Positions 39,713-54,549 of a stretch of DNA of 64,000 bases are shown in pieces. Source of the DNA: an uncultured Gaiellales bacterium (lineage in GTDB: Bacteria; Actinomycetota; Thermoleophilia; RBG-16-64-13); assembly GCA_964592075.1 (NCBI GenBank), contig CAZQDY010000006.1, positions 3,942-67,941 of the forward strand, read 5' to 3'. The notes beneath the pieces were generated by a model, which searched no databases, was not told the DNA's origin, and worked only from the letters and a program-made list of their open reading frames with translations. Numbering within the stretch: the first letter of the stretch is position 1; each line of letters opens with the position of its first letter. The position numbers and the translations under genes are program-made.

Positions 39713-39735
39713 GGCGCACAGCCGGTCTCCCTTCG

Positions 39736-40077: not shown

Positions 40078-40210
40078 CACGTTCACTCCCGATGGAAATG
40101 GTCCACTCAGCCGGCGCGCGACCACAAAGACGGTCCGGCCCATTACAGCGCCCGACGCACCGGGTGGGAACTGCCAAAAGCCCAGAGACAGGGCGCGCAG
40201 GATGGCCACC

Positions 40211-40552
40211 CTAGCCGATGGCCACGCAGCCGGTCTCCCCGGTGCGGATGCGTATGCACTCCTCGAGATCGAGCACGAAGATCTTGCCGTCACCGATGTT
40301 GCCCGTCCGCGCCCCTCTGGTGATGGCCTCGATGGCCGGGATGGCGAACGCGTCGTTCACGGCGATCTCCACCTTGACCTTGCGAAGCAGCCCTCCGCGC
40401 TCCACATGGCTGCGATAGACTTCGGCGACCCCCTTCTGCCGGCCCCGGCCCATGACGTCCGACACCGTGATGAGGTTGACCTCTTCTTCCTCCAGCGCGG
40501 CCATGACCTCGTCGAGGCGGTCGGGCTGGATGATGGCGATGATGTACTTCAC
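40211..40552 (-). CDS. glnK: P-II nitrogen regulatory protein (GlnK-type), copy 1, directly downstream of amtB
   Basis: MKYIIAIIQPDRLDEVMAALEEEEVNLITVSDVMGRGRQKG…; tandem paralog of 39736-40077 with a 133-bp spacer. Confidence 0.9.
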   Translation of the reverse strand: MKYIIAIIQPDRLDEVMAALEEEEVNLITVSDVMGRGRQKGVAEVYRSHVERGGLLRKVKVEIAVNDAFAIPAIEAITRGARTGNIGDGKIFVLDLEECIRIRTGETGCVAIG

Positions 40553-40575
40553 TCTTCCGCTCCTTCCCTGCCGGT

Positions 40576-41811
40576 CTAGCCGACCAGCGTGTAGGCGGAT
40601 TCACTGTGCTGGGTGAGATCGAGGCCTATGCCCTCGTTCTCTTCGCTGACACGCAGGCCCACGACCTTGTCCACCAGCTTCAACAATCCATACGAAAGGA
40701 CGAAGGAGTACGCGGCGCACACCACCAGGGCGACGAACTGCCACAGGAGCAGCCTGCCGTTGCCGTGGAAGACACCGTCCGCGCCTGCGGGATTGATGAC
40801 AGTGGTGGCCCAGAAACCGGTGAGGAGGGCGCCCAGCATGCCGCCTATACCGTGCACCCCAAAGGCGTCGAGCGAGTCGTCGTAGCCGAGCCTGCCCTTC
40901 ATGACCACGGCGGCCAGATAGCACACCAGCCCCGCGAGGGCGCCGATGCCCAGGGCACCGAGCGGCGTCACGAAGCCCGCGGCCGGAGTCACGGCCACCA
41001 GACCGGCGACCGCGCCTGATATCGTCCCCAGGGCCGTGGGGCGCTTGCCCTTGATCCACTCCACCGCCGCCCAGGCAACAGCCGCCGCCGCGGCGCCCAG
41101 CTGCGTCGCCACGAAGGCCGACACCGAGAGCCCGTTCGCTCCCAGAGCGCTGCCGGCATTGAAGCCGAACCAGCCGAACCAAAGCAGAGCCGCCCCCAGG
41201 ATGGCGAACGGAAGGTTGTGGGGTGGCGAGGTGTCCGGGTACCCCTTCCGCTTGCCCAAGACGAGCGCCGCGGCCAGGGCCGCCATGCCGGCGTTGATAT
41301 GCACCACCGTGCCGCCCGCGAAATCGAGGGCTCCCAGGTCGCGCAGCCACCCGCCCACTCCCCAGACCCAGTGCGCCATGGGGTCGTAGACGATGGTCGC
41401 CCAAAGAACGGAGAAGAGCAGAAAGGCGCTGAACTTCATGCGTTCCGCGAAAGCGCCGATGATGAGGGCCGGCGTGAGGACGGCGAACATCATCTGGAAG
41501 ACCATGAAGAGCGTGTGCGGGATGGTCGCGGCATAGTCGGCATTGGGTTCGGCGCCCACCCCGATCAGAGCCGCCCAGCTGAAGTCCCCGATGAATCCTC
41601 CGTGGTCGGGGCCGAAGGCCAGACTGTATCCGAAGACCACCCACTGTATGCTCATCACTCCGAGCAGCATGAAGCACTGCATCATAATCGAGAGCACGTT
41701 CTTCCGCCGGACCAAGCCGCCATAGAAGAAAGCCAGCCCCGGAGTCATCAGCATCACGAGCGCGGTGCTGACGATCATCCAGGCGGTGTCTCCGGTGTCG
41801 ATCTCCGCCAT
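40576..41811 (-). CDS. amtB: ammonium transporter (Amt family)
   Basis: MAEIDTGDTAWMIVSTALVMLMTPGLAFFYGGLVRRKNVLS…; 11-TM Amt signature; start set at MAEID (the 5' extension in the ORF track is unlikely). Confidence 0.9.
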   Translation of the reverse strand: MAEIDTGDTAWMIVSTALVMLMTPGLAFFYGGLVRRKNVLSIMMQCFMLLGVMSIQWVVFGYSLAFGPDHGGFIGDFSWAALIGVGAEPNADYAATIPHTLFMVFQMMFAVLTPALIIGAFAERMKFSAFLLFSVLWATIVYDPMAHWVWGVGGWLRDLGALDFAGGTVVHINAGMAALAAALVLGKRKGYPDTSPPHNLPFAILGAALLWFGWFGFNAGSALGANGLSVSAFVATQLGAAAAAVAWAAVEWIKGKRPTALGTISGAVAGLVAVTPAAGFVTPLGALGIGALAGLVCYLAAVVMKGRLGYDDSLDAFGVHGIGGMLGALLTGFWATTVINPAGADGVFHGNGRLLLWQFVALVVCAAYSFVLSYGLLKLVDKVVGLRVSEENEGIGLDLTQHSESAYTLVG

Positions 41812-41882
41812 GTCTACCCTCCTCCATCCGGCCGGCCAGGGCTCCACCAGGAGCCGACCACTCGCCGGCGCGATTGCCGTGA

Positions 41883-41901
41883 CATGGCAATTACAGCGGA
41901 G
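41883..41901 (-). promoter_or_regulatory. palindromic candidate operator ATTGCC-N7-GGCAAT about 72 nt upstream of amtB
   Basis: attgccgtgacatggcaat (15 of 19 positions self-complementary) in the amtB / PucR-regulator intergenic region. Confidence 0.4.
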
Positions 41902-41996
41902 GAGAGTCGAGAAGGTTATCGCCTAATGTACGATAGATAGGCTGCTTTGTTGGCCTTATGTATATAAGTGGCCGGTCCAGAGGGGTGAGCGGGCTC

Positions 41997-43649
41997 CTAA
42001 CTCGTGATCAGACTCCGCGCCTTCAGCCCCAGACCCAGCCGCTCCTTGTGCTCGGTCTCAAAGGGGTTGAGGCCGCTGATCTCGGCGATCTTCTCCAGGC
42101 GATAGCGGATGGTGTGCCGGTGCGCGTAGAGCTCGGCCGCGGTCTCAGTCAGACGTTCGTTGTTCTTGAAGAAGACGGCAAGGGTCCGGGTGAGCTGGGT
42201 GCCGTTCGCTTCGTCATAACGGTCGACCGGCCCGATGGTGTCCTCGTACAGGGCCTGGATTTCTCCGGGGTCCCGCTCGTAGATGTCGAGCAGGAGCCGG
42301 TAGGTGCCCACGTCATAGAAGTGCATCACGCTGCCGGGCCCCTCCAGTTTCCGCCCCACTTTGAGGGCGACCAACGCTTCCTGGTAGCCTCTATCCATCT
42401 GCGCGGCGTACGCCGTGAATCCCCCGATGCCCACCGAGGTGCTCAGGCCGACGGTGTTCTGAGCCGACTCCTGGAGCGAGGCCGCCAGCCGTCGGAGCGC
42501 TATGGGATCATGAGCGGTGGCCCCGCAGACGAAGATCACCACCCGCCCCGACTTGAGACTGACGAGCGACGAGACCTCCGACCGGGCGACAAGGCGAGAG
42601 GAATGAGTGAAGAACTGTTCCATCTTCCTGTCCAGCTCCTCCTGGTCGAGACCCCGCTGGTGGACCAGCCCGTCGGCCTCGTCGATCCCCACCAGGACCA
42701 CCGCGGCCCCCTGACTCAGATCGCATCCCAGGAAAGAACCCCGCCTCAGCAGCGAATCCCCCGACCTCTCCCCTCCGCTGATGACGTCGTCGACGAAGTC
42801 GCCCTTCAGACGCACCTCGGTCTCGAAACGCACCCGGTCTTGAGCCATCTCGAGAGCCGCGATGGTCGCTGAGTGCTCGAGGATCAGCACCTCGTTGTCC
42901 GATAGAGCCTCGGCGTCGGTCAGCGCGCACAGATACCCGAGCCGCTCACGGCTGGCCACGATCGGCAGGGCGAACATCGAGGCCATAGAGTCCTCCTCGA
43001 CCCGGAAGGGCTTCTGGCTCGAACCCATCACCGCGAAACGCTCCCGCGTCTGCGGGCGTCGCAGGCCGGCGACGAGGTCGGCCGCCGCCACGGGCAGGTC
43101 GCCAGAGGCCGCCAGGAGCTCGAACGACGCGTCCATGATCACCACGGGGCTCTCCAAGAGACGCGACGCTTCATCGGCAAGCTCCACCCAGCCCCCTCCC
43201 CGGATGACTATGCCCAGCAGATCCCGATGGACCGACTGGGACTGCTCGAGCTGAGAGGCCTGACGATTGATGATCACCTCGGTGGCGTCCTGCATGAGGC
43301 GGGTCCAACGCAGGCTCTGCGGCACCTCAACGATCGGGAACTTCCTCTTCTCCGCCAGCTCGATGATGTCGGCGGGCAGGTTCTCCACAAAACGGGTGGT
43401 CTTCACGAAGAGCGCGGCGGCGTCGGCCATCATCACCCGTTTGCAGAACTCGCGCTGCCTCTCGGGATCGCCTTTGACGGCGAAGAGAGTGGAAAGGACC
43501 AACTCCCCTCCCGACAACCACTCGGCGATGTCGGGGACCTCCCCCACCGTCACCGAGGTGACCCGGCGCTCCAGCCCGTCCTCGCCCGCGAGCAACCGGG
43601 CGTCGTCCAGCACGGGAAGCGCAAGGATCTGTCTGACCGTCACAGGCAT
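41997..43649 (-). CDS. PucR-family transcriptional regulator (PucR C-terminal HTH plus N-terminal sensory/GGDEF-like region)
   Basis: C-terminal HTH …TETAAELYAHRHTIRYRLEKIAEISGLNPFETEHKERLGL…; 550 aa. Confidence 0.8.
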   Translation of the reverse strand: MPVTVRQILALPVLDDARLLAGEDGLERRVTSVTVGEVPDIAEWLSGGELVLSTLFAVKGDPERQREFCKRVMMADAAALFVKTTRFVENLPADIIELAEKRKFPIVEVPQSLRWTRLMQDATEVIINRQASQLEQSQSVHRDLLGIVIRGGGWVELADEASRLLESPVVIMDASFELLAASGDLPVAAADLVAGLRRPQTRERFAVMGSSQKPFRVEEDSMASMFALPIVASRERLGYLCALTDAEALSDNEVLILEHSATIAALEMAQDRVRFETEVRLKGDFVDDVISGGERSGDSLLRRGSFLGCDLSQGAAVVLVGIDEADGLVHQRGLDQEELDRKMEQFFTHSSRLVARSEVSSLVSLKSGRVVIFVCGATAHDPIALRRLAASLQESAQNTVGLSTSVGIGGFTAYAAQMDRGYQEALVALKVGRKLEGPGSVMHFYDVGTYRLLLDIYERDPGEIQALYEDTIGPVDRYDEANGTQLTRTLAVFFKNNERLTETAAELYAHRHTIRYRLEKIAEISGLNPFETEHKERLGLGLKARSLITS

Positions 43650-43737
43650 GGTGAAACGAAAGATAGCAGAGTGGTCACGGACCGTGCCCGCCGCCTATAC
43701 AGCGTCTGGTGTGCCGCCCGTCGCGGAGGGCTCGGCG

Positions 43738-44142
43738 TCAGTCCATGACCTGACTGCTCAGGATCGCCACAACAGACCCCGTGTCGGGCTCCAGTCGCTC
43801 CGGGCTGATCGCCCTACCCCCCGACTCCATATAGATGCCGACTCTGACTCGCCTGCCCCTCACATGCACCCATGTGGCGGAGACCAGAGAGAACCGTCGC
43901 CCCGTCGAAGAGCCCTCGCTCCGCGCTAGATAGCGTCTGAGGTCCTGTGTCCGCAAATCGATGCCCGGCGGCATTCCCACCTCCCCAGGCATATCTGGGG
44001 CGCTACTGGCTCCCAGCAGGTTGCCCAGGCGATCGAGCAGGACGATGCCGTACGTCGGCTGCGCAGAGGGCTTAGGGCGGCATGCAGGCACCCCTGGAAC
44101 AACAGGCAGTGGAACGACCCGGCTATGCACGAGTCCGCTCAT
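43738..44142 (-). CDS. hypothetical protein (low confidence)
   Basis: ORF with Pro/Gly-rich low-complexity translation (MSGLVHSRVVPLPVVPGVPACRP…); placement upstream of, and co-oriented with, the PucR regulator is the only support. Confidence 0.2.
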   Translation of the reverse strand: MSGLVHSRVVPLPVVPGVPACRPKPSAQPTYGIVLLDRLGNLLGASSAPDMPGEVGMPPGIDLRTQDLRRYLARSEGSSTGRRFSLVSATWVHVRGRRVRVGIYMESGGRAISPERLEPDTGSVVAILSSQVMD

Positions 44143-44539
44143 CTTCGCCTCAAGATTCGACCCGTCAGGAGCAGTCACTGGGGCGCCCTGAATGTCCCAC
44201 TCCGGCCGGGGGAACGCAAGACGAGCCACCGGAGATTCCCGCAATTTGCAGCAGAAAGAAAAAGACGCAATGAGCGGTGTTTTGGACGGCCCGCCCTGGG
44301 AACGGTTCGCTCCGGCCGTGAGAAACACGGCGAGGCTCTGCGGTGCCCAGCGGTGTTTCGCGAGGGGCCTCTCGCAGCCTCCGACCACGTGGCCTGAGCC
44401 GAAGCGCCCCGGCGCATGGTAAGATTTCGGGGCCGGAATCCACGATAGAATCGGCGGTCAATCCGTGCCGGGGTGTTGGGGGACGCCACCATCGGTGCGG
44501 TTCTCTTTGTGGCGCTATAGCGGAGGCTTCGCACTTACG

Positions 44540-47500
44540 ATGGCGACGCTTGGTATCGACATAGGCTGCATCAGCGTGAAGATCGCTGTTGTGGGCGGGC
44601 CGGGGGACCGGGAGTCATTCACGAAGCTCTCGTCCGGGTCGACCCTCTTCCACAACCCTGAGCCCGGTGAGCGGGTGCTTCCCCACACGGATGCGCCGCC
44701 CATTCTGGCCACGGCCTACCGGCGTATCAAAGGCAGCCCCACCGAGGCGGCCCGGGAGCTCCTGAGCCAGGTGCTTGCCGCCCTGCCCGAGGGAACGGTC
44801 ACGGGCATGAGCGTCACCGGCACGGGAGGACGGCTCGTCGGCAACATGCTGGATGTGCCCTACCAGAACGAGTTCAAGGCCATCGCGCGCGCCGTGGGCG
44901 CGCTCCACCCGGACGTCACCACCGTCTTCGAGATGGGCGGGGAGACGTCCAAGTTCATCAGTCTCGAGACCGACGCGTCCTCCGGCCGGGTCGGCATCGC
45001 CGACTACGGCACCAACGGGGACTGCGCGGCCGGCACCGGTTCGTTCATGGACCAGCAGGCCAACCGCCTGCTGTACGACATAGAGGACGTAGGCGACATA
45101 GTGCAGGGCGCGGGCAAGGCCGCTTCCATCGCAGGCCGCTGCTCGGTGTTCGCCAAGTCGGACATGATCCACGCGCAACAGAAGGGCTACCAGCCGCCCG
45201 AGGTGCTGAAAGGCCTCTGCAACGCGGTGGTGCGCAACTACAAGGGCACCATCACCAAGGGCAAAGAGGTCGGCGGGCGGGTGGCCTTCATCGGTGGGGT
45301 GGCGGCCAACACAGGGGCCGTCGCCGCCATGCGCGAGGCTTTCGAGATAGACGAGCAGGGACTGGTCGTCCCCGCCCACTATGCGTGGATGGGCGCGATC
45401 GGCAGCGCCCTCATCGCCGCCGACGAGCTGGCCGGGACGGAGATGGTCACCATCGATCCGGCCCGTCTGGGGCAGGGCCAATCGGCGGACTTCCAGACCA
45501 GTGAGGTCCTCTCTCTGGACCGTGTCATCCTCCTGCGCGACCGGGTGAAGCCCTACCAGTTCCCGCCGGGCGACGGCAAGATCGGGGCCTATCTGGGCGT
45601 CGACGTCGGCTCCGTATCCACCAATCTGGTGGTCTTGGACGAAGCCGGCGAGGTGGTCAAGGAGATCTACGTCAAGACCGACGGGCGCCCCGTCGAGGTG
45701 GTCGGCAAGGGGCTCACCGACATCTGGAACGAGATGGGCCCGCGCCTGAACATCCTGGGCGTGGCCACCACCGGCTCCGGACGGGAGCTCATCGGCGAGC
45801 TCATCGGGGCCGACACCGTGAACGACGAGATCACGGCCCACAAGACGGGCGCCACTTCAATCGGACGCAAGCTCATCGACCGGGTGCCCGACACCATCTT
45901 CGAGATCGGCGGCCAGGACTCCAAGTTCATCAGCCTGCAGGACGGCGTGGTGGTCGACTTCGCCATGAACGAAGCCTGCGCGGCCGGCACCGGCTCGTTC
46001 CTCGAGGAGCAGGCCGAGAAGCTGGGCATCAACATCATCGGCGAGTTCGCCGAGCTGGCTCTGTCTTCCAAGGCCCCGGTCAAGCTGGGTGAGCGCTGCA
46101 CCGTGTTCATGGAGCGGGACGTCAACTCCTACCTCCAGAGGGGAGCCGACAAGAAGGATCTCGTGGCCGGGTTGGCTTACTCCATCGCCTACAACTACCT
46201 CAACCGCCTGGTAGGCCGTCGCCATATCGGAGACACCATCTACTTCCAGGGCGGCACCGCCTACAACGACTCTGTGGCGGCGGCTTTCAGCAGGATCCTC
46301 GACAAGGAGATCATCGTTCCGCCACACAACGGGGTGGTCGGAGCCATCGGCGTGGCGCTCCTGGCCCGCGAGAAGATGGCGGCCACCGGGACCCCCTCCC
46401 GTTTCCGCGGCTGGGACCTCGACAAGGTGGAATACACCGTCCGGGAGTTCACCTGCAAAGGCTGCAGCAACGAGTGCGACATACGCCAGTTCACCATAGG
46501 AGACGAGAAGACCTACTGGGGCGACAAGTGCTCCGACCGCTATCGCAAGCGGGCCAAGGTCGACAAGGAACCCGTGATCCGCGACCTGCTTGAGTTCAGA
46601 AGCGCCCTGCTCTTCTCCTACGTGACCGACGAGGCCGACGACACCACCGCGCTGCTCCGCAGCGGCGCCGGCTCTCCCCGCGGCACCATCGGCATCCCGC
46701 GGGCCATGTACACGCACGAGCGCCTGCCGTTCTGGGCCACCTTCTTCAAGTCGTGCGGCTTCGACGTCATGCTGTCCCGCCAGACCGACAAGAAGATCCG
46801 CCAGTGGGGCATCGAGGGAGCCGTGGCCGAGCCCTGCTTCCCTATCCGAGTGGCGCACGGTCATGTCATGGAGTTGATCGAAGAGGGTGCCGACCGCATC
46901 TTCATCCCCAACATGCTGAACGAGGAGACCGATCACCCGGATATCGAGTCGCACGCCTGCCCGTGGGGCCAGACGCTGCCTCACGTCATCCGCTTCGCCC
47001 CGCACTTCGAGGCCCACGCCGACCGCTTCCTCCTCCCCACGCTTCATTTCCGCCGGGGACCGCAGTACATCGGGGCCACTCTGCGGGCGACCATGAAGCC
47101 TCTGGGCGTTCCGGCCCGGGTGGTGGATGCAGCCGTAAAGGAAGCCTACGAGGCCCAGACCGAGTTCCGCAGCCGTGTGCTGCTGGCGGGCACCGAGGCA
47201 TTGGCTCTGCTCGAGGAGCACGACGAGTTGGGCATCGTCCTGGTCGGCCGGCCCTACAACATCTATGACCCCGGGGTCAACATGGACATCCCGGCCAAGC
47301 TCCGCCGCTACTACGGGGTCAATCTCATCCCCTTCGATTTCCTGCCCCTGTGGGGGGTGCAGACGCAGGACGTCACCGTGAACATGTACTGGGGCTATGG
47401 GCGCAAGATCCTGCAGGCGGCCAAAGTGGTCGCCCAGCACCCCAATCTGCACATCATCTACATGACCAACTTCAAGTGCGGTCCCGACTCGTACATCAAA

Positions 47501-47665
47501 CACTACGTGGGAGCCGCCGACCCCGACCCCTACCTGGTGCTGCAGTTCGACGAGCACACGAACGACGCGGGCGTCATGACCCGCTGCGAGGCCTACCTCG
47601 ACAGCAAGGGGTTCCTGCGCTGGTGGGTGCGCGAGGAGAGGGCGAAGCAGACGGTGGAGGGCTAG
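44540..47665 (+). CDS. double BadF/BadG/BcrA/BcrD-type ATPase fusion (acyl-CoA dehydratase activase-like) with extra C-terminal domain
   Basis: Two ASKHA ATPase modules, each with GIDIG/GVDVGS phosphate-1 and CAAGTGSF motifs (MATLGIDIGCISVKIAVV… and …YLGVDVGSVSTNLVVLD…); Cys motif CKGCSNEC; about 1040 aa. Confidence 0.85.
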   Translation: MATLGIDIGCISVKIAVVGGPGDRESFTKLSSGSTLFHNPEPGERVLPHTDAPPILATAYRRIKGSPTEAARELLSQVLAALPEGTVTGMSVTGTGGRLVGNMLDVPYQNEFKAIARAVGALHPDVTTVFEMGGETSKFISLETDASSGRVGIADYGTNGDCAAGTGSFMDQQANRLLYDIEDVGDIVQGAGKAASIAGRCSVFAKSDMIHAQQKGYQPPEVLKGLCNAVVRNYKGTITKGKEVGGRVAFIGGVAANTGAVAAMREAFEIDEQGLVVPAHYAWMGAIGSALIAADELAGTEMVTIDPARLGQGQSADFQTSEVLSLDRVILLRDRVKPYQFPPGDGKIGAYLGVDVGSVSTNLVVLDEAGEVVKEIYVKTDGRPVEVVGKGLTDIWNEMGPRLNILGVATTGSGRELIGELIGADTVNDEITAHKTGATSIGRKLIDRVPDTIFEIGGQDSKFISLQDGVVVDFAMNEACAAGTGSFLEEQAEKLGINIIGEFAELALSSKAPVKLGERCTVFMERDVNSYLQRGADKKDLVAGLAYSIAYNYLNRLVGRRHIGDTIYFQGGTAYNDSVAAAFSRILDKEIIVPPHNGVVGAIGVALLAREKMAATGTPSRFRGWDLDKVEYTVREFTCKGCSNECDIRQFTIGDEKTYWGDKCSDRYRKRAKVDKEPVIRDLLEFRSALLFSYVTDEADDTTALLRSGAGSPRGTIGIPRAMYTHERLPFWATFFKSCGFDVMLSRQTDKKIRQWGIEGAVAEPCFPIRVAHGHVMELIEEGADRIFIPNMLNEETDHPDIESHACPWGQTLPHVIRFAPHFEAHADRFLLPTLHFRRGPQYIGATLRATMKPLGVPARVVDAAVKEAYEAQTEFRSRVLLAGTEALALLEEHDELGIVLVGRPYNIYDPGVNMDIPAKLRRYYGVNLIPFDFLPLWGVQTQDVTVNMYWGYGRKILQAAKVVAQHPNLHIIYMTNFKCGPDSYIKHYVGAADPDPYLVLQFDEHTNDAGVMTRCEAYLDSKGFLRWWVREERAKQTVEG

Positions 47666-49032
47666 TGGATACGGTCACCGAGACCAAGGGCGGCAACGGC
47701 AAGGGTTCGCGCGAAGCGGCTGAAGCGGCCCTGGACGCGCTACCCAAGCCTATCGCGGCCAGAGGGGCCGAGACGAGCCCCGTCGAAGAGGCCGTCGACA
47801 TCAAGAACCGCACCACCTGGCTCTGCCGTATGCCATACGGCGGGTCGCGCATGCTGGCGGCTGCGTTCCGGTCCATCGGGATGGACACCCGGGTGACGCC
47901 CGACGAAGACGCCCGCACGTTGGAGCTGGGTGCCAAGTACAACTCGGGAGACGAATGCTATCCGCAGCGCATCGTCCTCGGCGACTACATGAAGCTGCTC
48001 GAGGACGAGAGGCTCGACCCCAAGAAGACCGCCCTCCTGCTTCCCACGGCCAACGGGCCCTGCAGGTTCGGCCAGTACATCAGGTTGCTGCGCCGCATCC
48101 TGGACGAGCAGGGATACAAGGACGTGGCCATCCTCTCGTTCACGTCGGCCGACGGCTACGCGGGCATCGGCGACCAGGCGGGAGAGGTCATCCGCACCGC
48201 CTGGCGGGCGGTGCTCGTGCAGGACATCCTCCTCAAGCTGTTGCTCATGATCCGGCCCTACGAGGTCGACCCCGGCGAGACCGATAAGGTCTACCTGGAC
48301 AGCCTCGACCAGATGGGCAAGATAGTCGAGCAGCAGGGCCTCAGCAACAAGGAGCGGCTGAGACAGATCAAGGCGGGGCTCCGCAAGGTCAAAGAGGCGT
48401 TCCTGGCCGTGCAGGTGAATAAGGAGGACCGTCCACTCATTGGAGTGGTGGGCGAGATCTTCTGCCGCCTCAATACCTTCGCCAACAACGAGCTCATCCG
48501 GCATATCGAAGCGCAGGGCGGAGAGTGCTGGCTGACCGGCATCGGCGAATGGGTCTGGTACACGAACGCTGAAGCCTTCCGCCGCCACCGGGAGGAGAAG
48601 AGCCGCTTCACCAAGCCCTGGCTACGGACTTTCATCACCGGCCGGCTGATGAGGAGCGACGAGAAGACCCTCTACAAGGACTTCCGGGAGGTCTTCGCCG
48701 ACCGGCCCGATCCACATGTCCATGAGGTGCTCGAGGCGGCGCAGCCCTATCTGCCCCAGTCGGGCGCGCTCGGCGAGATGGTCCTATCGACCGGAGGGAC
48801 CATCACCCTCTATCGCCGCGGGGTCGACGGCATAGTCGACATCAGCCCCTTCAGCTGCATGAACGGCATCGTCACCGAGGCAGTCTACCCGCGTGTCAGC
48901 AAGGACCACGACAACATCCCCGTACGAGTGTTCTACTTCGACGGCACGCAGAGCGACCTCGACCGCGACGTGGGGATCTTCCTGGAACTCGCGACGACCT
49001 ACAGGCGACGCAAGAAGATAGGCGGGTCTTAG
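47666..49032 (+). CDS. DUF2229 / 2-hydroxyglutaryl-CoA dehydratase D-component (HgdB)-like protein
   Basis: GTG start directly after the activase stop; …SGDECYPQRIVLGDYM…ANGPCRFGQY… Cys motifs as in HgdB-like proteins; 455 aa. Confidence 0.7.
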
Positions 49033-49080
49033 GGAAGGGACGGTGGGCGCTTTGCCGGGAGCTCAGACGCAAGCCGCAGC

Positions 49081-51645
49081 ATGTTCGCACGTCTAGGCTC
49101 CTTCGCCGTCCGCTTCCGCTGGGTCATCATCGCCGCATGGGTGGCCGCGGCGGTGGTATTGACCCTGGTTGCTCCCAACATCGATGACGTGGCCGTGAGC
49201 GACCAGCGGGCATTCCTCCCCACCGACGCGCCCAGCCTTCACGCTCATGAGGTGGTCACGGAGTACTTCCCCGACAGGGTCTCGCCCTCGAGTGCCGTCC
49301 TCACTATCGACTCGGGCCCAGGCGGACGTGCCGACCAGGGTCAGGCGGCCGCGTTCGTCAGCGATCTCACCACGTGGCTGACCGGCCCCGAGGCCCCGGC
49401 AGGCGTGGACGAGGTGTGGTCTCCGGTGCTCGGAGACGAGCAGACCAGGGCCGGCGTCACCAGCCAGGACAGGCAGGTGACTCTCGTGCTGGTCCGTTTC
49501 GAAGCCATGGGGACCGAGCCCGAGACCGTCGAGGCCTTCGACGACATCCGCGCGCGTCTCAGCCTGAGACCGGACGGGGTCAAGACCCTGATGACCGGCG
49601 ATGGGCCTATCCTCGCCGCCTACAGCGGCGCCTCCCGCACGAGCACCGACTCCACCACCTGGATCACGATCGTCCTCGTGGTCGCCATCCTGCTCCTCAT
49701 CTACCGCTCGCCGGTCAGCCCGCTCATCCCCCTGTTCACCATAGCGCTGGCCTATCTGATCTCGCGGGGAGTGGTCGCGCTCCTGGGCGCCCACGCGCTC
49801 ACCATCTCGCTCTACACCAACGTCTTCCTGGTCGTGGTGCTTTTCGGAGCGGGCACCGACTACTGCCTGTTCCTCATCAGCCGCTTCCGGGAGGAGATGA
49901 CCGGCGCCTCGACCTCGGCGCCCGCCGTCAGGACCACGGTGAGGGCCGTGGGAGAGACCATCGCCTCCAGCGCCGGCACGGTCATCGTGGGCCTCGCCAT
50001 GATGACGGTCGCCGAGCTCGGCCTCTACAACACCAGTGGGCCCAGTCTCGCCATCGGAGTGGCCATCGCCCTCCTGGCCGGTCTGACGCTCACGCCCGCG
50101 CTGCTCACCATCCTCGGCCATAAAGCGTTCTGGCCGCGCAAGGCCAGGCACATGAGAGATCAGGGGGTCTGGCACAACTGGGCCGGCAGGGTGGTGAGGC
50201 GACCCCTCGTGACCTTCCTGGTGCCGGTCATCGCACTGGTGCCGCTGGCGATCTATGGCGCGGGCCTGAAGAGCGACTTCGACCTGCTGGGCGACCTCTC
50301 GCGGAAAGACGAAACCCGGATGGGTTTCGAGACGATCTCGGCCCACTTCGGGGCGGGAGAGATGCAGCCTCTCAACGTGGTGGCCATCGACCCGGCGGGC
50401 TACGATACCCCCACGGGGCTGAGGCGTACCGAGCAACTGGCGGCCGAGTTGGGCCGCATGGCTCATGTGGCCAGGGTGCGGAGCTTCACCGGATCGTTGG
50501 AGGACAAGGAGTTCCTCGGTGTGGCCGGTCAACTGGCCGAAGTGGCTCAGGGAGTGCGCGACGGCATAGCGGAGGTCGAGAAGGCCGCGGGAGGCGCGGG
50601 CGGAGGCGGCGCCGCCCAGTTGGAGGCGGCCGCCGCCGCTCTCGTCGAGGTGGGCGGCTACCTCGTGCAACTTGCCGGCGCCTATCCCGATGTGGTCCAG
50701 GACCTCGGATACCAGGAGGCGACCGGCGCCCTCGCCGGGCTCCAAGAGCTGGCAGGCGACGCGACAAGCCGCACCTCCGCCCCCACACCAGCGCTCATCC
50801 AGCAGGCACTCGCGCGACTGGAGTCGCTCGCTGAAGGTCTCGACACACTTCGGGTGTCGTTCGCCGCCAGGTCGGACGCCATCCTTCTTCCGGATCTCTA
50901 TCTCGAACGAAACGAGGGGCTCAGGGCTCTTCGCGACGCCTACATCTCAACCGACGGCGCCGCGACACGCCTGCAGGTGGTGCTGGACTCGGGACCCTAC
51001 AGCCAGGAATCCATCTCCACGGTGGAGGCCATGCGCCGGACACTCAGCGACGCGGGGGTCGATGCCGTGATCGAGGGCAATTCGGCTGTGTTGCTCGATC
51101 TGCGCGACTCGTCCGACCGGGACATGACCCGTGCCATCGTTTTCGTACTCGGGGGCGTCTTCGTCGTCCTGCTCTTGCTGCTGCAGGCCGTGGTGGCTCC
51201 CATATACCTGATCCTGACCATCCTGCTCTCCTACGCGGCCACACTGGGTGTGGTGAGGCTCGTCTTCGTCGACATCATGGGCACGGCCGGGGTCACCTGG
51301 TGGGTGCCCATGTTCATGTTCGTGATGCTGGTCGCCCTGGGTATGGACTACAACATCTTCCTCATCGGGCGTGTGAAGGAGGAGGTGGCGAACCACGGCA
51401 CCAGGGCGGGGACCCGTCTGGCTCTGGCGCGGACGGGCGGCATCATCACCTCGGCGGGGGTCATCATGGCGGGGACGTTCGCCAGCATGCTGAGCGGCGA
51501 CCTGCTGGGGCTGTTGCAGATCGGGTTCGCTGTGGCCTTCGGCGTGCTGCTAGACACCTTCGTGGTCCGCACCACGCTGGTGCCCGCGATCACGGTGTTG
51601 CTCGACCGCTGGGCCTGGTGGCCACGGAGAGGGCCGAAGGTCTGA
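49081..51645 (+). CDS. MMPL family RND-type transporter (second copy)
   Basis: 854 aa; MFARLGSFAVRFRWVIIAAWVAAAVVLTLVAP…; two 6-TM bundles; long coiled/Ala-rich periplasmic insert; 48 nt downstream of the HgdB-like gene. Confidence 0.9.
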   Translation: MFARLGSFAVRFRWVIIAAWVAAAVVLTLVAPNIDDVAVSDQRAFLPTDAPSLHAHEVVTEYFPDRVSPSSAVLTIDSGPGGRADQGQAAAFVSDLTTWLTGPEAPAGVDEVWSPVLGDEQTRAGVTSQDRQVTLVLVRFEAMGTEPETVEAFDDIRARLSLRPDGVKTLMTGDGPILAAYSGASRTSTDSTTWITIVLVVAILLLIYRSPVSPLIPLFTIALAYLISRGVVALLGAHALTISLYTNVFLVVVLFGAGTDYCLFLISRFREEMTGASTSAPAVRTTVRAVGETIASSAGTVIVGLAMMTVAELGLYNTSGPSLAIGVAIALLAGLTLTPALLTILGHKAFWPRKARHMRDQGVWHNWAGRVVRRPLVTFLVPVIALVPLAIYGAGLKSDFDLLGDLSRKDETRMGFETISAHFGAGEMQPLNVVAIDPAGYDTPTGLRRTEQLAAELGRMAHVARVRSFTGSLEDKEFLGVAGQLAEVAQGVRDGIAEVEKAAGGAGGGGAAQLEAAAAALVEVGGYLVQLAGAYPDVVQDLGYQEATGALAGLQELAGDATSRTSAPTPALIQQALARLESLAEGLDTLRVSFAARSDAILLPDLYLERNEGLRALRDAYISTDGAATRLQVVLDSGPYSQESISTVEAMRRTLSDAGVDAVIEGNSAVLLDLRDSSDRDMTRAIVFVLGGVFVVLLLLLQAVVAPIYLILTILLSYAATLGVVRLVFVDIMGTAGVTWWVPMFMFVMLVALGMDYNIFLIGRVKEEVANHGTRAGTRLALARTGGIITSAGVIMAGTFASMLSGDLLGLLQIGFAVAFGVLLDTFVVRTTLVPAITVLLDRWAWWPRRGPKV

Positions 51646-51668
51646 GCGCGGGCCGCGGCCGGCCCGGG

Positions 51669-52979
51669 TCAACTCTCCCCCACCAACTCCCTCTTGACGA
51701 CCAAGCGGCCGTCCTTGTAGGCGCGCCACACCGGGTTCATCCCATAGCGATACGGGATCTCAGCGTAGCGGGTGTGGTCGAGCACAAGGATGTCGGCTTT
51801 CTTGCCCACCTCCAGGCTGCCCACCTCGTGATCCAGGGCCAATGCCGCCGCCGCCTCGATGGTGATGGACCGGATCACCTCATCGGCCGACATCCTGAGC
51901 TGGGAGCAACCCATGGTGGCCATCAACCAGAGGTTCTGTGTAGGACTCGAACCTGGGTTGAGGTCCGTGCTCAGAGCGACTCGGGCACCGGCGTCCAGCA
52001 GCCTGCGGGCGGGCGCATAGCCGCCCTCACCCAGGAAGAAGGTTGCCCCTGGGAGGATCACCCCCACCGGCACGCGTCTCTCACCCGTGAGAGCGGCCAG
52101 AGCCGCGATGCCCGCGTCGCTGATGTGGTCGAGATGGTCCACCGAAACGGCGCCGATCTCGGCCGCCATCTCCGTGGCTCCCGTGTAGGTGAGTTGGTCG
52201 GCGTGGAGCTTGGGCAGGAGGCCGTGCTCAGCACCTGCCTCCAGCACACGCCGGCACTGATCCACCGAGAAGGCCCCCTGTTCACAGAACGCATCGCAGA
52301 ACACGGCCAGCTTGTGCTTGGCAGCAGCCGGGATCATCTTCTTGACGATCAACTTGATGTAGTCGTCGACGCGGTCCGCGTAGTCCACCGGCACCATGTG
52401 GGCGGCCAGCAGCGTCGGGACCACATCCACAGCGTGCGCCGCTCCAACGTCCCGATAAACCTCGAGCAGCCGCACTTCCTGTTCGACTGAAAGACCATAG
52501 CCGCTCTTGGCCTCCACGGTGGTGACGCCGAACCGCAGGAACTGGTCCAGCCGTCTCTTGGTGAGCGCGCGGAGTGTCTCATCAGACGCGGCACCGGTGG
52601 CATGCACCGTGCTGCTGATGCCACCGCCGGCTCTAGCCACCTCTTGATAGGTAGCGCCACCGACGCGCATCTGGAACTCGTCAGCGCGGTCGGCGGCAAA
52701 GGCCAGGTGCGCGTGGCACTCCACCAAGCCCGGCATGACCACCCGCCCGTCCGCATCGACCTCTTCTCCCCCCCGGATCAAGCGGACCTCTTCGCGAAGG
52801 GCCTCGTTGCCGCCGACCCACACAACGCGACCCTCGCGCGCGGCCACCGCTCCTCCGGGTATCACACCGAGCACCGACCTCGCGCCCGACTCGACGCCGG
52901 TCCGTTCACACGTGAGAAGCTCGCCCGCGCCGCTGATGATCAGATCGGCTTCGACCCAAGCCTGCGCAGACCCGTTCAA
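51669..52979 (-). CDS. hutI: imidazolonepropionase
   Basis: Amidohydrolase metal ligands …GLVECHAHLAF…; HutI-like length of 436 aa; hutH/hutU/hutG are not adjacent. Confidence 0.85.
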   Translation of the reverse strand: MNGSAQAWVEADLIISGAGELLTCERTGVESGARSVLGVIPGGAVAAREGRVVWVGGNEALREEVRLIRGGEEVDADGRVVMPGLVECHAHLAFAADRADEFQMRVGGATYQEVARAGGGISSTVHATGAASDETLRALTKRRLDQFLRFGVTTVEAKSGYGLSVEQEVRLLEVYRDVGAAHAVDVVPTLLAAHMVPVDYADRVDDYIKLIVKKMIPAAAKHKLAVFCDAFCEQGAFSVDQCRRVLEAGAEHGLLPKLHADQLTYTGATEMAAEIGAVSVDHLDHISDAGIAALAALTGERRVPVGVILPGATFFLGEGGYAPARRLLDAGARVALSTDLNPGSSPTQNLWLMATMGCSQLRMSADEVIRSITIEAAAALALDHEVGSLEVGKKADILVLDHTRYAEIPYRYGMNPVWRAYKDGRLVVKRELVGES

Positions 52980-53097
52980 GTTCGGCCTCCTATCTCGCGC
53001 GGAACGGTCAAGCCGACTCCATCCCGTCCTCTATACCGCGCTCCGCATAGTAACTCTATTGTGGCGAATGGGTACGCCCCCTTCTGCCTCGGCTTCC

Positions 53098-54543
53098 CTA
53101 ACGCCGCCAGAAAGCCCGGGTCAAGGGGATGAGGATGGAGAAGAGCTCCAGACGGCCGACCACCATCATGACGATCAGCACCACCTTCGCGAACGGGTGC
53201 ATGAGCGCGTAGTTGGCCATCGGCCCGACCAGACCGAGCCCGGGACCGATGTTGTTGAGTGTTGCCGCCACCGAGGTCGTCGACGTGATCATGTCGACGT
53301 TGGTGGCCGCCACGAGCACGCTGCCGATCAAGAATATCGCCACGTAGAGCACAAAGTAGCCCAAGACGTTCACCCGTGCCGCCTCGGGCACTATCCGACC
53401 GCCGGTCTTGAGGGGCAACACCGCCTGGGGATGCATTTGCCGGGTCAACTCGTGCCGGATGCTCTTGAACAGCACGAGTATGCGGGCCACCTTGAACCCT
53501 CCCCCCGTCGATCCTGCCGACCCTCCCACGAACATCAGGAGCACCAGCAGCAGCTTTGCGAAGGGATTCCATACGTCAAAGTCGGCAGTCGCGAACCCGG
53601 TGGTTGTCTGGAGAGAGCTGACCTGGAAGAGAGCCTCTCGGAACGCGTGCCCAGCGCTGAAATGGCTCTTGGCCAGCATGAGACTGATCGCCGCCACCAC
53701 CACCGAAACGCCCATTATCGCCGTGTAGAGGCGAAACTCCGGGTTCTTGTACCAGCGCGAGGACCGGCCGCGGAGCACGGCGTAGTAGAGGGCGAAGTTG
53801 CCACCCGCGATCCACATGAAGAACACCAGGACAAGCTCGATGGGTAGACTGCCGAATTCCCCGATGCCCCCCGCCCGAGTGGAGAAACCCCCCGTCGCCA
53901 TCGTGGCGAACGCATGGCAGAACGCCTCGTACACGTCCATCCCAAAGACCGACAGCAACACGATCTCAAGAACGGTGAATCCCGCGTAGATGAGCCACAG
54001 ATTGCGGGCTGTGTCGCGGATCCGGGGAGTGAGCCTCTCCGGCACCGGACCCGGCGCTTCTGCCGAGAACAGCCTCATAGCGCCCGCTCCGAGCGGCCGC
54101 AGGACGGCGATGAAGAGCACGATGATGCCCATGCCACCGAACCACTGGCTGAGCGACCTCCAGAAGAACAGACCGTGAGGCTGGTCGTAGTCGGTGAGAA
54201 CGCTGGCCCCGGTGGTGGTGAAGCCCGACATGCTCTCGAAGAGCGCATCCACGGGCCCGAGCACCCCGCAGACCAGGTAGGGCAGCGCCCCGAAGACCAT
54301 GGCCACGATCCATCCCAGCCCAACCGACAGGAAACCCTCTCGATACCCGATGCTCGTACGGCCTCTGAGCCGGGTGAAGAAGAAGAGCGGCACACCGACC
54401 GCGAAGGCGATGGCAGCCGATATGACCAGGTGGATCACATCCGGGTCGCTGTAGATTGCCGAGACCCCGGCAGATGCCAGGATCCCGGTGCCCACCACCG
54501 AGATGACGACCCCGACCAGGTGGCCAACGAAACGTAGGTTCAT
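53098..54543 (-). CDS. trkH: TrkH-family potassium uptake protein
   Basis: 481 aa; repeated M1-P-M2 pore motifs TTTGFATAD / TTTGASVLTD. Confidence 0.9.
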   Translation of the reverse strand: MNLRFVGHLVGVVISVVGTGILASAGVSAIYSDPDVIHLVISAAIAFAVGVPLFFFTRLRGRTSIGYREGFLSVGLGWIVAMVFGALPYLVCGVLGPVDALFESMSGFTTTGASVLTDYDQPHGLFFWRSLSQWFGGMGIIVLFIAVLRPLGAGAMRLFSAEAPGPVPERLTPRIRDTARNLWLIYAGFTVLEIVLLSVFGMDVYEAFCHAFATMATGGFSTRAGGIGEFGSLPIELVLVFFMWIAGGNFALYYAVLRGRSSRWYKNPEFRLYTAIMGVSVVVAAISLMLAKSHFSAGHAFREALFQVSSLQTTTGFATADFDVWNPFAKLLLVLLMFVGGSAGSTGGGFKVARILVLFKSIRHELTRQMHPQAVLPLKTGGRIVPEAARVNVLGYFVLYVAIFLIGSVLVAATNVDMITSTTSVAATLNNIGPGLGLVGPMANYALMHPFAKVVLIVMMVVGRLELFSILIPLTRAFWRR

Positions 54544-54549
54544 CGGCTT

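What the first reader, a model, noticed from the sequence alone, without database searches (positions are those of the whole stretch)
44540..51645. Operon of a double BcrA/BadF-type ATPase 'activase' fusion, an HgdB-like DUF2229 protein and an MMPL exporter
A roughly 1040-aa protein with two complete ASKHA (2-hydroxyacyl-CoA dehydratase activator-type) ATPase modules is followed, at a 0-nt gap, by a DUF2229/HgdB-like Cys-motif protein. An MMPL transporter follows 48 nt later. No HgdA-like dehydratase alpha subunit is present. This YjiL/YjiM-like pairing is widespread but functionally uncharacterised; coupling to a lipid-type RND exporter suggests an ATP-driven radical/redox modification of an exported hydrophobic substrate.
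Basis: partly seen in the sequence, partly recalled or inferred. Interest (0 to 1): 0.65.

Follow-up and report, generated by a model that had tools for sequence, protein, structure and literature searches.

The report
Ether-lipid synthase operon with dedicated MMPL
The three genes are real, but the first two are a two-gene form of the already characterised anaerobic plasmalogen/ether-lipid synthase (PlsA-PlsR/Ger); what is new is a lipid-exporter-type MMPL gene that travels with them in one group of uncultured Thermoleophilia.

Summary
Three co-directional genes lie at 44540-47665 (1041 aa), 47665-49032 (455 aa, start overlapping the previous stop by 1 nt) and 49081-51645 (854 aa MMPL, 48-nt gap).

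The reading [quoted passage not shown] does not hold.
- Gene 1 is Act1-Act2-(4-Cys linker)-Red1 (DUF2229). Gene 2 is a paralogous second reductase module (Red2).
- Both genes are co-linear with the experimentally characterised Clostridium perfringens PlsA and PlsR (E 4e-118 and 7e-37).
- All 14 family-invariant cysteines are shared.
- Gene 2 homologues form the C-terminus of ~1400-aa single-chain relatives.

The pair is therefore a PlsA-PlsR/Ger-family enzyme. It most likely uses ATP and low-potential electrons to reduce the sn-1 ester of glycerolipids to a vinyl or alkyl ether. Sequence cannot tell which product is made.

The MMPL link is clade-restricted:
- It occurs in 13 of 19 close Thermoleophilia relatives (12 of 18 distinct loci).
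- It is absent from the nearest relative (92% identity) and from all 60 more distant loci.
- All six MMPL orthologues sampled independently sit directly behind such a pair.

A dedicated exporter or flippase for the ether-lipid product is plausible but unproven. The locus is a new variant of a known kind, of moderate interest.

The parts
44540..47665 (+). Gene 1, plsA-like (1041 aa): Act1-Act2-(4-Cys linker)-Red1
   Evidence: ORF and start codon. Pfam finds BcrAD_BadFG twice plus DUF2229. It is 27.6% identical to C. perfringens PlsA over 1004 columns, E 4e-118. Homologues of the same length reach 53-92% identity in 80 genome loci.
44546..45439 (+). Act1, the first HgdC-type ASKHA ATPase module (aa ~3-300), with cluster Cys C162 and C201
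   Evidence: It is an internal repeat of Act2: 29% identity, E 1e-33, with C162 aligned to C480 and C201 to C520. It matches MbdP (aa 62-268) and BcrD (aa 112-291). Both Cys are invariant in all 27 aligned family members.
45593..46366 (+). Act2, the second ASKHA ATPase module (aa 352-609), with cluster Cys C480 and C520
   Evidence: Best Pfam stretch is aa 352-609. Alignment to HgdC (1HUX, E 7e-31) places C480 on Cys127 and C520 on Cys166. Both are invariant.
46454..46531 (+). Linker motif C639-x2-C642-x3-C646-x17-C664
   Evidence: All four Cys are invariant across the window protein, Cp PlsA and 25 fused homologues (residues listed). Its metal site ([4Fe-4S] or Zn) is inferred, not shown.
46685..47662 (+). 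Red1, a DUF2229 catalytic module (aa 716-1041), with invariant C766, C807 and C980
   Evidence: Pfam DUF2229 covers aa 716-934 at 196.9 bits. The three Cys are invariant. It is a paralogue of gene 2 with the three Cys in register (hhalign probability 89-97%).
47665..49032 (+). Gene 2, plsR-like (455 aa): Red2, the second catalytic module, with invariant C98, C133 and C398
   Evidence: The GTG start overlaps the gene 1 stop. It is 25.3% identical to C. perfringens PlsR over 391 columns, E 7e-37. Homologues form residues ~1000-1400 of ~1400-aa fused proteins. The AF2 model has pLDDT 87.7. Its top 13 PDB fold matches are all DCCP, BzdNO, MbdON or HadBC catalytic subunits.
49081..51645 (+). Gene 3, an MMPL-family RND transporter (854 aa): 12-TM pattern with a long second extracytoplasmic loop (aa ~399-679)
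   Evidence: Pfam MMPL scores 397 bits in two stretches. It falls below the cut-offs for MmpL3, HpnN and BstA. Hydropathy pattern. Orthologues of 52-81% identity lie directly downstream of plsA/plsR-like pairs.

Best explanation
Genes 1 and 2 encode a two-subunit member of the PlsA-PlsR/Ger family, the oxygen-sensitive enzymes that turn the sn-1 acyl ester of a finished membrane glycerolipid into an ether.

Likely mechanism (inferred from the BCR/HAD superfamily and from the mechanism proposed for PlsAR):
1. Act1 and Act2 form an intramolecular pseudo-dimer. It holds one bridging [4Fe-4S] cluster on C162/C201/C480/C520.
2. This cluster is reduced by a low-potential donor.
3. ATP hydrolysis drives that electron, possibly via the 4-Cys linker site, into the Red1/Red2 pair.
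4. Red1 and Red2 each carry a three-Cys [4Fe-4S] site with an open iron.
5. The ester carbonyl receives two sequential electrons and protons, and is then dehydrated to a 1-alk-1'-enyl (vinyl) ether. Alternatively it is reduced further to a saturated alkyl ether.

Which of the two products is made cannot be read from sequence.

Gene 3, co-transcribed 48 nt downstream, is a proton-motive-force-driven MMPL/RND transporter. In this Thermoleophilia lineage it has become a dedicated partner. It most likely moves the ether lipid, or a lipid derived from it, out of the cytoplasmic leaflet.

What is shown and what is inferred:
- Shown here: gene structure, domain anatomy, homology to characterised PlsA/PlsR, conserved Cys, the fold of gene 2, and the phylogenetic pattern of MMPL linkage.
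- Inferred: cofactors, electron path, substrate, product and MMPL cargo.

Confidence is about 0.75 for the enzyme family and reaction class, and about 0.35-0.4 for the MMPL carrying the ether-lipid product.
For: Reference sequence:
- The C. perfringens plsA-plsR operon was recovered with both published cloning primers, 4199 bp apart. This equals the functionally expressed fragment.
- Gene 1 is co-linear with PlsA (E 4e-118) and gene 2 with PlsR (E 7e-37).

Anatomy:
- 14 Cys are invariant across the window pair, Cp PlsA+PlsR and 25 fused homologues.
- The HgdC cluster ligands Cys127 and Cys166 align with C480 and C520. The Act1 equivalents are shown.
- Gene 2 homologues are the C-terminal ~400 aa of ~1400-aa single-chain relatives. 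E. faecalis, L. cremoris and B. longum PlsA have this form.
- The gene 2 model has the HAD/BCR/DCCP catalytic fold.
- Red1 and Red2 are paralogues with their Cys in register.

Distribution and function in the literature:
- The gene 1/gene 2 adjacency holds in about 75 of 80 loci across Actinomycetota, Latescibacterota, Acidobacteriota, Planctomycetota and other phyla.
- The BBD architecture is the part conserved in all alkyl-ether producers. Family members give plasmalogens or 1-O-alkylglycerols in E. coli.
- Close relatives come from digesters, anaerobic membrane bioreactors, bogs and sediments. This is consistent with an anaerobic enzyme.

MMPL linkage:
- The MMPL lies directly downstream (estimated gaps ~1-150 nt in 11 loci, ~390 nt in one frameshifted locus) in 13 loci of one sub-clade, with 52-72% MMPL identity.
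- 6 of 6 independently sampled MMPL orthologues (55-81% identity) follow such a pair, despite different upstream flanks.
- 26 contig-length matches link the two top-120 homologue lists.
- The other MMPL in the window is only 27-34% identical.
Against: - Identity to the only characterised reference I could obtain is low (28% and 25%). Orthology to validated Ger proteins (T. maritima, D. alkenivorans) could not be tested.
- No member of this BBD + separate Red2 clade has been assayed.
- No other lipid-biosynthesis gene lies next to the cluster in the window.
- The MMPL is absent from the closest relative (92% identity, L013), from four other genomes of the same sub-clade, and from every more distant locus. 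It is therefore dispensable for the enzyme.
- The downstream hut genes are also often syntenic, so part of the MMPL linkage could be inherited gene order.
Confidence: 0.72

Rival explanations
1. This is an uncharacterised YjiL/YjiM-type activase + HgdB-like pair that lacks a catalytic alpha subunit. It performs an unknown radical modification of a substrate exported by the MMPL.
For: - The ATPase modules are about 30% identical to E. coli YjiL.
- Public annotations only say 'acyl-CoA dehydratase activase' or 'hypothetical'.
- NCBIfam has no specific model for gene 2.
Against: - Gene 2 vs YjiM gives E 0.003 over 59 aa, against E 1e-36 for PlsR in the same search.
- Full-length co-linearity with PlsA-PlsR, with all Cys shared.
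- The family has a published function.
- Red1 supplies the supposedly missing partner.
Confidence: 0.05
2. A soluble-substrate enzyme of the BCR/HAD/DCCP superfamily. It would be an acyl-CoA dehydratase, an aryl-CoA reductase, or a double-cubane-cluster-type reductase of small molecules. The MMPL would be an unrelated neighbour.
For: - The best fold matches of gene 2 are DCCP, BzdNO, MbdON and HadBC.
- The activase modules score against benzoyl-CoA reductase A/D/Q models.
- Identity to PlsAR is only 25-28%.
Against: - All benzoyl-CoA reductase scores are far below their cut-offs.
- There is no PF06050 (HGD-D) hit at E<=0.01.
- A family profile of gene 2 finds no PDB sequence at all. Similarity to those enzymes is therefore at fold level only (11-14% identity).
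- No CoA-transferase, ligase or fermentation genes are nearby.
- The Act-Act-Red + Red architecture is that of PlsAR/Ger.
Confidence: 0.12
3. Genes 1 and 2 are a PlsAR/Ger enzyme, but the MMPL is only a syntenic passenger with its own unrelated cargo. There is no functional coupling.
For: - The MMPL is absent in 5 of the 18 assessable genomes of the sub-clade, including the 92% relative, where a ~7-kb block (MMPL, amidohydrolase, trkH, trkA) is missing.
- It is absent in all other phyla and in the fused homologues sampled.
- The downstream hut genes are often conserved too.
- Genomes of this lineage carry several MMPL paralogues.
Against: - 6 of 6 sampled orthologues of this MMPL sit right behind a plsA/plsR-like pair with short same-strand spacers, while the upstream flanks differ.
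- The linkage persists down to 52-55% MMPL identity.
- In L011 the amidohydrolase remains but the MMPL is gone. The MMPL is therefore not simply part of the hut block.
Confidence: 0.3

Closest known systems
PlsA-PlsR plasmalogen synthase of Clostridium perfringens (CPE1194/1195; Jackson et al. 2021, as described in PMC12838417, PMC9702350 and PMC8788747)
   Same: - The same two-gene order.
- The same module order, Act1-Act2-linker-Red1 plus a separate Red2.
- Co-linear homology of both proteins (E 4e-118 and 7e-37).
- All 14 family-invariant Cys are shared.
   Different: - Only 28% and 25% identity.
- Gene 1 is 66 aa longer and gene 2 is 35 aa longer, with a disordered 45-aa N-terminus.
- The host is an uncultured high-GC Thermoleophilia, not a Firmicute.
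- The product (vinyl or alkyl ether) is unknown.
- No MMPL has been reported with pls operons in the literature I could search.
Ger, glycerol ester reductase ('modified PlsA') of Thermotoga maritima (Tmari_0479) and Desulfatibacillum alkenivorans (Sahonero-Canavesi et al. 2022, PMC13159169)
   Same: The BBD core (two PF01869 domains plus PF09989), which that paper finds conserved in all alkyl-ether producers. It also shares anaerobic chemistry on the sn-1 ester.
   Different: - Ger is a single chain with further D/H (PF06050) segments. Here the second reductase module is a separate gene that Pfam barely detects.
- Direct sequence comparison was not possible.
Activators of 2-hydroxyacyl-CoA dehydratases (HgdC, HadI) with their HgdAB/HadBC dehydratases, and class I benzoyl-CoA reductases (BcrABCD, BzdNOPQ, MbdONPQ)
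   Same: - ASKHA ATPase modules with the two cluster-bridging Cys.
- The catalytic modules share the fold.
- ATP-coupled injection of a low-potential electron is the shared principle.
   Different: - Here the two ATPase protomers are fused in one chain together with a catalytic module.
- No PF06050 match is found.
- The substrate in this family is a membrane glycerolipid ester, not a CoA thioester.
- Similarity of the catalytic modules is 11-14% identity at fold level only.
Double-cubane cluster protein DCCP with its reductase DCCP-R (PDB 6ENO, 7YYL, 7YZM)
   Same: It is the top structural match of gene 2 (E 4e-7). DCCP-R matches the ATPase modules (7yyl_E, E 2e-22).
   Different: - Only 14% identity, and no sequence-level hit with the family profile.
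- Gene 2 has only three invariant Cys.
- The architecture is different.
Actinobacterial MmpL lipid exporters encoded next to the biosynthetic genes of their cargo (for example MmpL3, MmpL7, MmpL8; named from general knowledge)
   Same: An MMPL-family RND protein with 12 TM segments and two extracytoplasmic loops, placed in an operon with lipid-modifying enzymes.
   Different: - It is far below the equivalog cut-offs of MmpL3, HpnN and BstA.
- The partner is an ether-lipid synthase rather than pks/fadD/papA genes.
- The cargo is unknown.

Membership tests
PlsA-PlsR plasmalogen synthase | PlsA subunit: two activase modules followed by a reductase module, homologous over its full length | tested here: met
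   Gene 1 vs C. perfringens PlsA: 27.6% identity over 1004 columns, E 4e-118. Pfam finds BcrAD_BadFG twice plus DUF2229.
PlsA-PlsR plasmalogen synthase | PlsR subunit (second reduction/dehydration module), encoded immediately downstream or fused | tested here: met
   Gene 2 vs PlsR: 25.3% identity over 391 columns, E 7e-37. Gene 2 is adjacent with a 1-nt overlap. Fused homologues are seen.
PlsA-PlsR plasmalogen synthase | Conserved cysteines of the Fe-S sites (activase bridge, linker, Red1, Red2) | tested here: met
   14 Cys are invariant in 27 sequences, including both the window pair and Cp PlsA+PlsR.
PlsA-PlsR plasmalogen synthase | Converts the sn-1 ester of diacyl glycerophospholipids to a vinyl ether | not testable with these tools
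   This needs anaerobic expression and lipid analysis. The literature states that PlsA and Ger cannot be told apart by sequence.
PlsA-PlsR plasmalogen synthase | Orthology (phylogenetic placement among validated members rather than in a paralogous clade) | not tested
   Only one characterised reference could be recovered. The E. faecalis primer scan found nothing. The Jackson 2021 paper and the Sci Adv supplements are not held.
Ger (glycerol ester reductase) | BBD core architecture (PF01869 x2 + PF09989) | tested here: met
   Result; definition.
Ger (glycerol ester reductase) | Sequence homology to T. maritima Tmari_0479 / D. alkenivorans SHJ90043, and a saturated alkyl-ether product | not tested
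The product is not testable in silico.
2-hydroxyacyl-CoA dehydratase system (HgdC + HgdAB) | Activator ATPase with the two [4Fe-4S]-bridging Cys (HgdC Cys127 and Cys166) | tested here: met
   In the alignment to 1HUX, C480 aligns with Cys127 and C520 with Cys166. The Act1 equivalents are C162 and C201.
2-hydroxyacyl-CoA dehydratase system (HgdC + HgdAB) | HgdA/HgdB-type subunits (Pfam PF06050, HGD-D) | tested here: not met
   No PF06050 hit at E<=0.01 in gene 1 or gene 2. Similarity is at fold level only, at 11-13% identity.
E. coli YjiL/YjiM pair | Partner protein homologous to YjiM | tested here: not met
   Gene 2 vs YjiM: E 0.003 over 59 aa only. Gene 1 vs YjiM: E 0.14.
Double-cubane cluster protein (DCCP) | Sequence-level membership and the Cys ligands of the double-cubane cluster | tested here: inconclusive
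   DCCP is the top fold match. However, identity is 14% and the family profile finds no PDB sequence. The ligand set was not compared residue by residue.
MMPL family of RND transporters | Two MMPL repeats and a 12-TM topology | tested here: met
   PF03176 scores 397 bits in 2 stretches. Hydropathy segments.
MmpL3 / HpnN / BstA (MMPL-type or RND-type transporters of known cargo) | Score above the NCBIfam equivalog cut-off | tested here: not met
   MmpL3: 106.5 bits against a cut-off of 1400. HpnN: 29-71 bits against 752-1100. BstA: 26.6 bits against 1400.

The most novel reading that the evidence does not exclude
In this Thermoleophilia lineage a specialised MMPL transporter has been recruited as the dedicated exporter or flippase of the ether lipid (plasmalogen or alkyl-ether glycerolipid) made by the PlsAR/Ger-type enzyme. 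It would be the first transporter tied to bacterial ether lipids. It would imply that these lipids are delivered to the outer leaflet or to an extracytoplasmic envelope layer, rather than simply staying where they are made.
Probability: 0.3. Interest if true: 0.6.

Novelty: new variant of a known kind. Interest (0 to 1): 0.36.

Why it matters
Ether-linked bacterial lipids (plasmalogens, alkyl ethers and ultimately brGDGT-type lipids) are used as environmental and palaeoclimate markers. Their producers in anoxic soils and sediments are still being sought.

The locus adds three things:
1. It places uncultured anaerobic Thermoleophilia among the likely producers.
2. It shows that the widespread 'BBD-only' PlsA/Ger homologues of Thermoleophilia, Latescibacterota, Acidobacteriota, Planctomycetota and other phyla are almost always followed by a PlsR-like second reductase gene. 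Pfam misses this gene. Domain-based screens that read such hits as lacking the second reduction domain may therefore misjudge them.
3. It offers a testable candidate for how ether lipids are trafficked, namely a dedicated MMPL.

None of this overturns current understanding. The enzyme itself is a new member of a known family.

Tried and rejected
Searches that led nowhere:
- Sequence searches of gene 2 against PDB sequences, alone and as a family profile, found nothing meaningful. A fold search was needed.
It was rerun without that sequence.
- Promoter/terminator consensus scans were uninformative.
- Rfam found nothing in 43000-52500.
- The exact-sequence look-up of the window's own gene 1 product found no contig on record.
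- The listing of cluster members gave no characterised names.
- The Sci Adv 2022 supplements and the Jackson 2021 paper are not held.
- PMC9131029 had no PlsA detail.
- The E. faecalis plsA primer gave no hit in viral contigs. No second characterised reference was therefore obtained.
- A paper search for Thermoleophilia plus ether lipids, and one for MmpL plus glycerol ester reductase, each returned zero papers.

Ideas considered and rejected:
- Genes 1 and 2 being one gene split by a sequencing frameshift. The split recurs with different spacers in about 75 loci.
- A YjiL/YjiM relationship.
- The GTG at 44465 as the start of gene 1. Homologues align from the ATG at 44540.

Caveat: the hmmsearch scores of the Red1 and Red2 profiles against Cp PlsA/PlsR are circular, because those rows were in the alignment. 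They are not used as evidence.
Full report
**What is there**

The window is about 65% G+C. Between 44.5 and 51.6 kb it carries three same-strand ORFs bounded by opposite-strand genes.
- Gene 1 runs from ATG 44540 to the TAG at 47663-47665 and encodes 1041 aa.
- Gene 2 starts at the GTG at 47665, which shares one base with that stop, and ends at 49032 (455 aa).
- Gene 3 spans 49081-51645 (854 aa), after a 48-nt spacer.

Pfam and NCBIfam give the following:
- Gene 1 has two BcrAD_BadFG / CoA_E_activ ATPase stretches plus a strong DUF2229 domain at aa 716-934.
- Gene 2 has only a sub-threshold DUF2229 match (26.7 bits against a 29.4 cut-off).
- Gene 3 is a full two-repeat MMPL (397 bits). It is far below the cut-offs for MmpL3, HpnN and BstA.

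Its description of gene 1 as only a double ATPase is incomplete.

**Surroundings and source**

The flanking genes are unrelated housekeeping genes:
- Upstream: glnA, amt and a PucR-type regulator.
- Downstream, on the opposite strand: an imidazolonepropionase-like amidohydrolase, trkH, trkA, an H+-pyrophosphatase and a phosphoglycerate mutase.

A second, distant MMPL gene lies at 7809-10037 on the minus strand. It is 27-34% identical to gene 3.

The closest homologues of gene 1 (65-92% identity) come from metagenome-assembled Thermoleophilia/Gaiellales/Actinomycetota genomes. Their sources are anaerobic digesters, anaerobic membrane bioreactors, bogs, permafrost and lake sediment.

No Rfam family and no informative promoter or terminator consensus was found around the cluster.

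**Identity of genes 1 and 2**

The literature describes exactly this domain set.
- The anaerobic plasmalogen synthase PlsA-PlsR of C. perfringens is a BCR/HAD-type complex with modules Act1, Act2, Red1 and Red2. It is encoded by two genes in C. perfringens and by one ~1400-aa gene in Enterococcus, Lactococcus and Bifidobacterium.
- Its relative Ger (glycerol ester reductase) makes saturated sn-1 alkyl ethers. Its conserved core is 'BBD', meaning PF01869 twice plus PF09989.

To test homology directly I recovered the reference operon.
1. The gene-specific part of the published forward cloning primer was searched in metagenome contigs.
2. In two loci both primers match 4199 bp apart. This is the size of the fragment whose expression in E. 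coli gave plasmalogens.
3. The fragment encodes PlsA (975 aa) and PlsR (420 aa).

BLASTP then gave these results:
- Gene 1 vs PlsA: 27.6% identity over 1004 columns, E 4e-118.
- Gene 2 vs PlsR: 25.3% identity over 391 columns, E 7e-37.
- Gene 2 vs E. coli YjiM: E 0.003 over 59 residues only. The ATPase modules resemble YjiL no more than they resemble any HgdC-type activase.

**Anatomy**

An exhaustive HMMER search with gene 2 found 2445 representatives. Many of the best are ~1350-1480-aa proteins in which the match occupies residues ~1000-1400. Gene 2 is therefore the detached C-terminal module of the single-chain enzymes.

I aligned gene 1+gene 2, Cp PlsA+PlsR and 25 fused proteins. The alignment shows 14 invariant cysteines:
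- C162 and C201 in Act1.
- C480 and C520 in Act2.
- C639, C642, C646 and C664 in the linker (a CX2CX3C...C motif).
- C766, C807 and C980 in Red1.
- C98, C133 and C398 in gene 2.

Further structural and profile evidence:
- In the HMMER alignment to HgdC (PDB 1HUX), C480 and C520 fall on Cys127 and Cys166, the ligands of the dimer-bridging [4Fe-4S] cluster.
- Act1 aligns to Act2 at 29% identity, with C162/C201 in the same columns.
- An AlphaFold model of gene 2 (pLDDT 87.7, pTM 0.86) finds only catalytic subunits of DCCP, BzdNO, MbdON and HadBC as its 13 significant PDB matches (E 4e-7 to 4e-4, 11-14% identity).
- Profile-profile comparison shows Red1 and Red2 to be paralogues (probability 89-97%). 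Their three Cys motifs are in register: EPCFP/DECYP, ACPWGQ/PCRFGQ and FKCGPD/FSCMNG.

The supposedly missing alpha subunit is therefore present as the C-terminal third of gene 1. Neither protein has a predicted transmembrane segment.

**Conservation of the pair**

A scan of species-representative genomes returned 80 loci with gene 1 homologues (53-92% identity). They come from Actinomycetota, Latescibacterota, Acidobacteriota, Planctomycetota, Krumholzibacteriota, Calditrichota, Gemmatimonadota, Nitrospinota and others.
- A gene 2 homologue lies directly downstream in about 75 of them.
- Most of the remainder are cut by contig ends.
- The precomputed Pfam annotations show this partner as 'DUF2229 (weak/faint)' or as nothing at all.

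A 2026 preprint interprets BBD-only hits in Latescibacterota, Acidobacteriota and Chloroflexota as lacking the second reduction domain. In the clade studied here that domain is simply encoded by the next gene.

**The MMPL linkage**

tblastn with gene 3 against the same loci finds it, on the same strand and directly after gene 2 (estimated gaps about 1-150 nt in 11 loci; about 390 nt in L014, whose gene 2 is frameshifted), in 13 loci. One genome is represented twice (L001 and L017), so these are 12 distinct loci. All belong to one Thermoleophilia sub-clade with at least 68% gene 1 identity.

The MMPL is absent in these cases:
- The closest relative, L013 (92% identity). There the H+-PPase and phosphoglycerate mutase follow gene 2, so a block of about 7 kb is missing.
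- L011. The amidohydrolase follows gene 2 directly.
- L016, L069 and L020.
- The whole sister Thermoleophilia clade (63-66% identity).
- Every other phylum.
- Three distant fused homologues. One of these is followed by an FtsX permease, a radical-SAM/SPASM protein and a glycosyltransferase. Another is preceded by a phospholipid methyltransferase.

From the transporter's side the picture is tighter.
- The top 120 gene 3 homologues (55-99% identity) share 26 contig lengths with the top 120 gene 1 homologues.
- All six orthologues sampled from contigs not in that overlap (81, 67, 63, 59, 59 and 55% identity) lie immediately after a plsA/plsR-like pair. Their upstream neighbours differ: PucR, Lactamase_B, SLH, Amt/P-II or Fe-ADH.

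The linkage is therefore lineage-specific and dispensable for the enzyme. Within this sample, however, this MMPL orthogroup has not been seen anywhere else.

**Most likely function**

Shown here:
- the family assignment
- the module order
- the conserved ligands
- the fold of gene 2
- the linkage pattern

Established for the family:
- Expression of PlsA(-PlsR) yields plasmalogens.
- Expression of Ger yields 1-O-alkylglycerols, only or mainly under anoxic conditions.
- The proposed chemistry is two sequential one-electron reductions of the ester, followed by protonation and dehydration.

Inferred:
- Act1/Act2 hold one bridging [4Fe-4S] cluster and use ATP hydrolysis to push a low-potential electron, perhaps via the 4-Cys linker site, into the three-Cys clusters of Red1/Red2. 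The sn-1 ester carbonyl of a membrane glycerolipid is reduced there.
- The MMPL, by analogy with actinobacterial MmpL exporters encoded beside the biosynthetic genes of their lipid cargo (general knowledge), moves the product out of the inner leaflet.

The literature states that vinyl and alkyl products cannot be distinguished from sequence.

**Rivals**

- A soluble-substrate BCR/HAD/DCCP enzyme is possible, given the low identity to PlsAR. It is disfavoured by the architecture, the sub-threshold scores against those families and the lack of CoA-metabolism neighbours.
- A purely syntenic MMPL remains a serious alternative for the third gene, because the MMPL has been lost repeatedly.

**Verdict**

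It is wrong in calling the system uncharacterised and in its subunit accounting.

The enzyme is a new, split-gene member of a known family. The recurrent operon with a dedicated MMPL appears undescribed in the literature I could search and is a modest, testable novelty.

Noticed in passing
window 7809-10037 (-), with neighbours 6889-7812 (-) and 10076-10822 (-): A second MMPL gene (742 aa) lies here. It is only 27-34% identical to gene 3. It is flanked by a Zn-dependent alcohol dehydrogenase-family gene and a DUF4386 gene, and may form another small transporter cluster.
   Followed up: partly
L013 (closest relative, 92% identity) compared with window 49081-55908: In the nearest sequenced relative, gene 2 is followed directly by the H+-pyrophosphatase and phosphoglycerate mutase genes. 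Relative to it, the window carries an extra block of about 7 kb (MMPL, amidohydrolase, trkH, trkA).
   Followed up: partly
L095/L096 6001-13794 (Thermoanaerobaculales, Acidobacteriota): A fused 1401-aa PlsA/Ger homologue is followed on the same strand by a MacB/FtsX-type permease, a radical-SAM/SPASM protein and a glycosyltransferase. This could be an ether-lipid or membrane-spanning-lipid gene cluster with a different kind of transporter.
   Followed up: no
L097 4157-9097: A phospholipid methyltransferase (PEMT) gene sits immediately upstream of a fused 1431-aa homologue. This is consistent with a membrane-phospholipid context for the family.
   Followed up: no
L101 6545-6943; L099 9642-10106 and L100 9650-10114: There are small variations of the three-gene module. 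In one genome a DUF2177 gene is inserted between the plsR-like gene and the MMPL. In two others a PNPOx-like gene lies right after the MMPL.
   Followed up: no
L102 4554-5573: In one long-read MAG the plsA-like gene is called only as a 339-aa DUF2229 fragment in front of intact plsR-like and MMPL genes. It may be a pseudogene or an assembly frameshift.
   Followed up: no
window 47665-47799 (gene 2 aa 1-45); alignment A1 columns 1-90: The first ~45 residues of gene 2 are modelled as disordered (pLDDT below 50). More distant homologues lack this stretch. Several stand-alone homologues instead begin with a 'KPFLxLExDEHxxDxG..TRxEAFLD' segment that corresponds to the C-terminal end of Red1 in gene 1. 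The fission or fusion point between the two genes therefore varies.
   Followed up: partly
window 32688-43649: A nitrogen-assimilation neighbourhood lies here. It holds a CCG/4Fe-4S protein, glutamine amidotransferase and glutamate-synthase-domain proteins, glnA, an ammonium transporter and a PucR-type regulator. The regulator is also found upstream of the plsA-like gene in two relatives (L099, L100).
   Followed up: no
window 23360-24796 (-): This gene encodes a protein that combines SLH repeats, a peptidoglycan-binding domain and a YkuD L,D-transpeptidase domain. An SLH protein is also found upstream of the module in L001 and L101. It hints at an S-layer-type envelope in this lineage.
   Followed up: no
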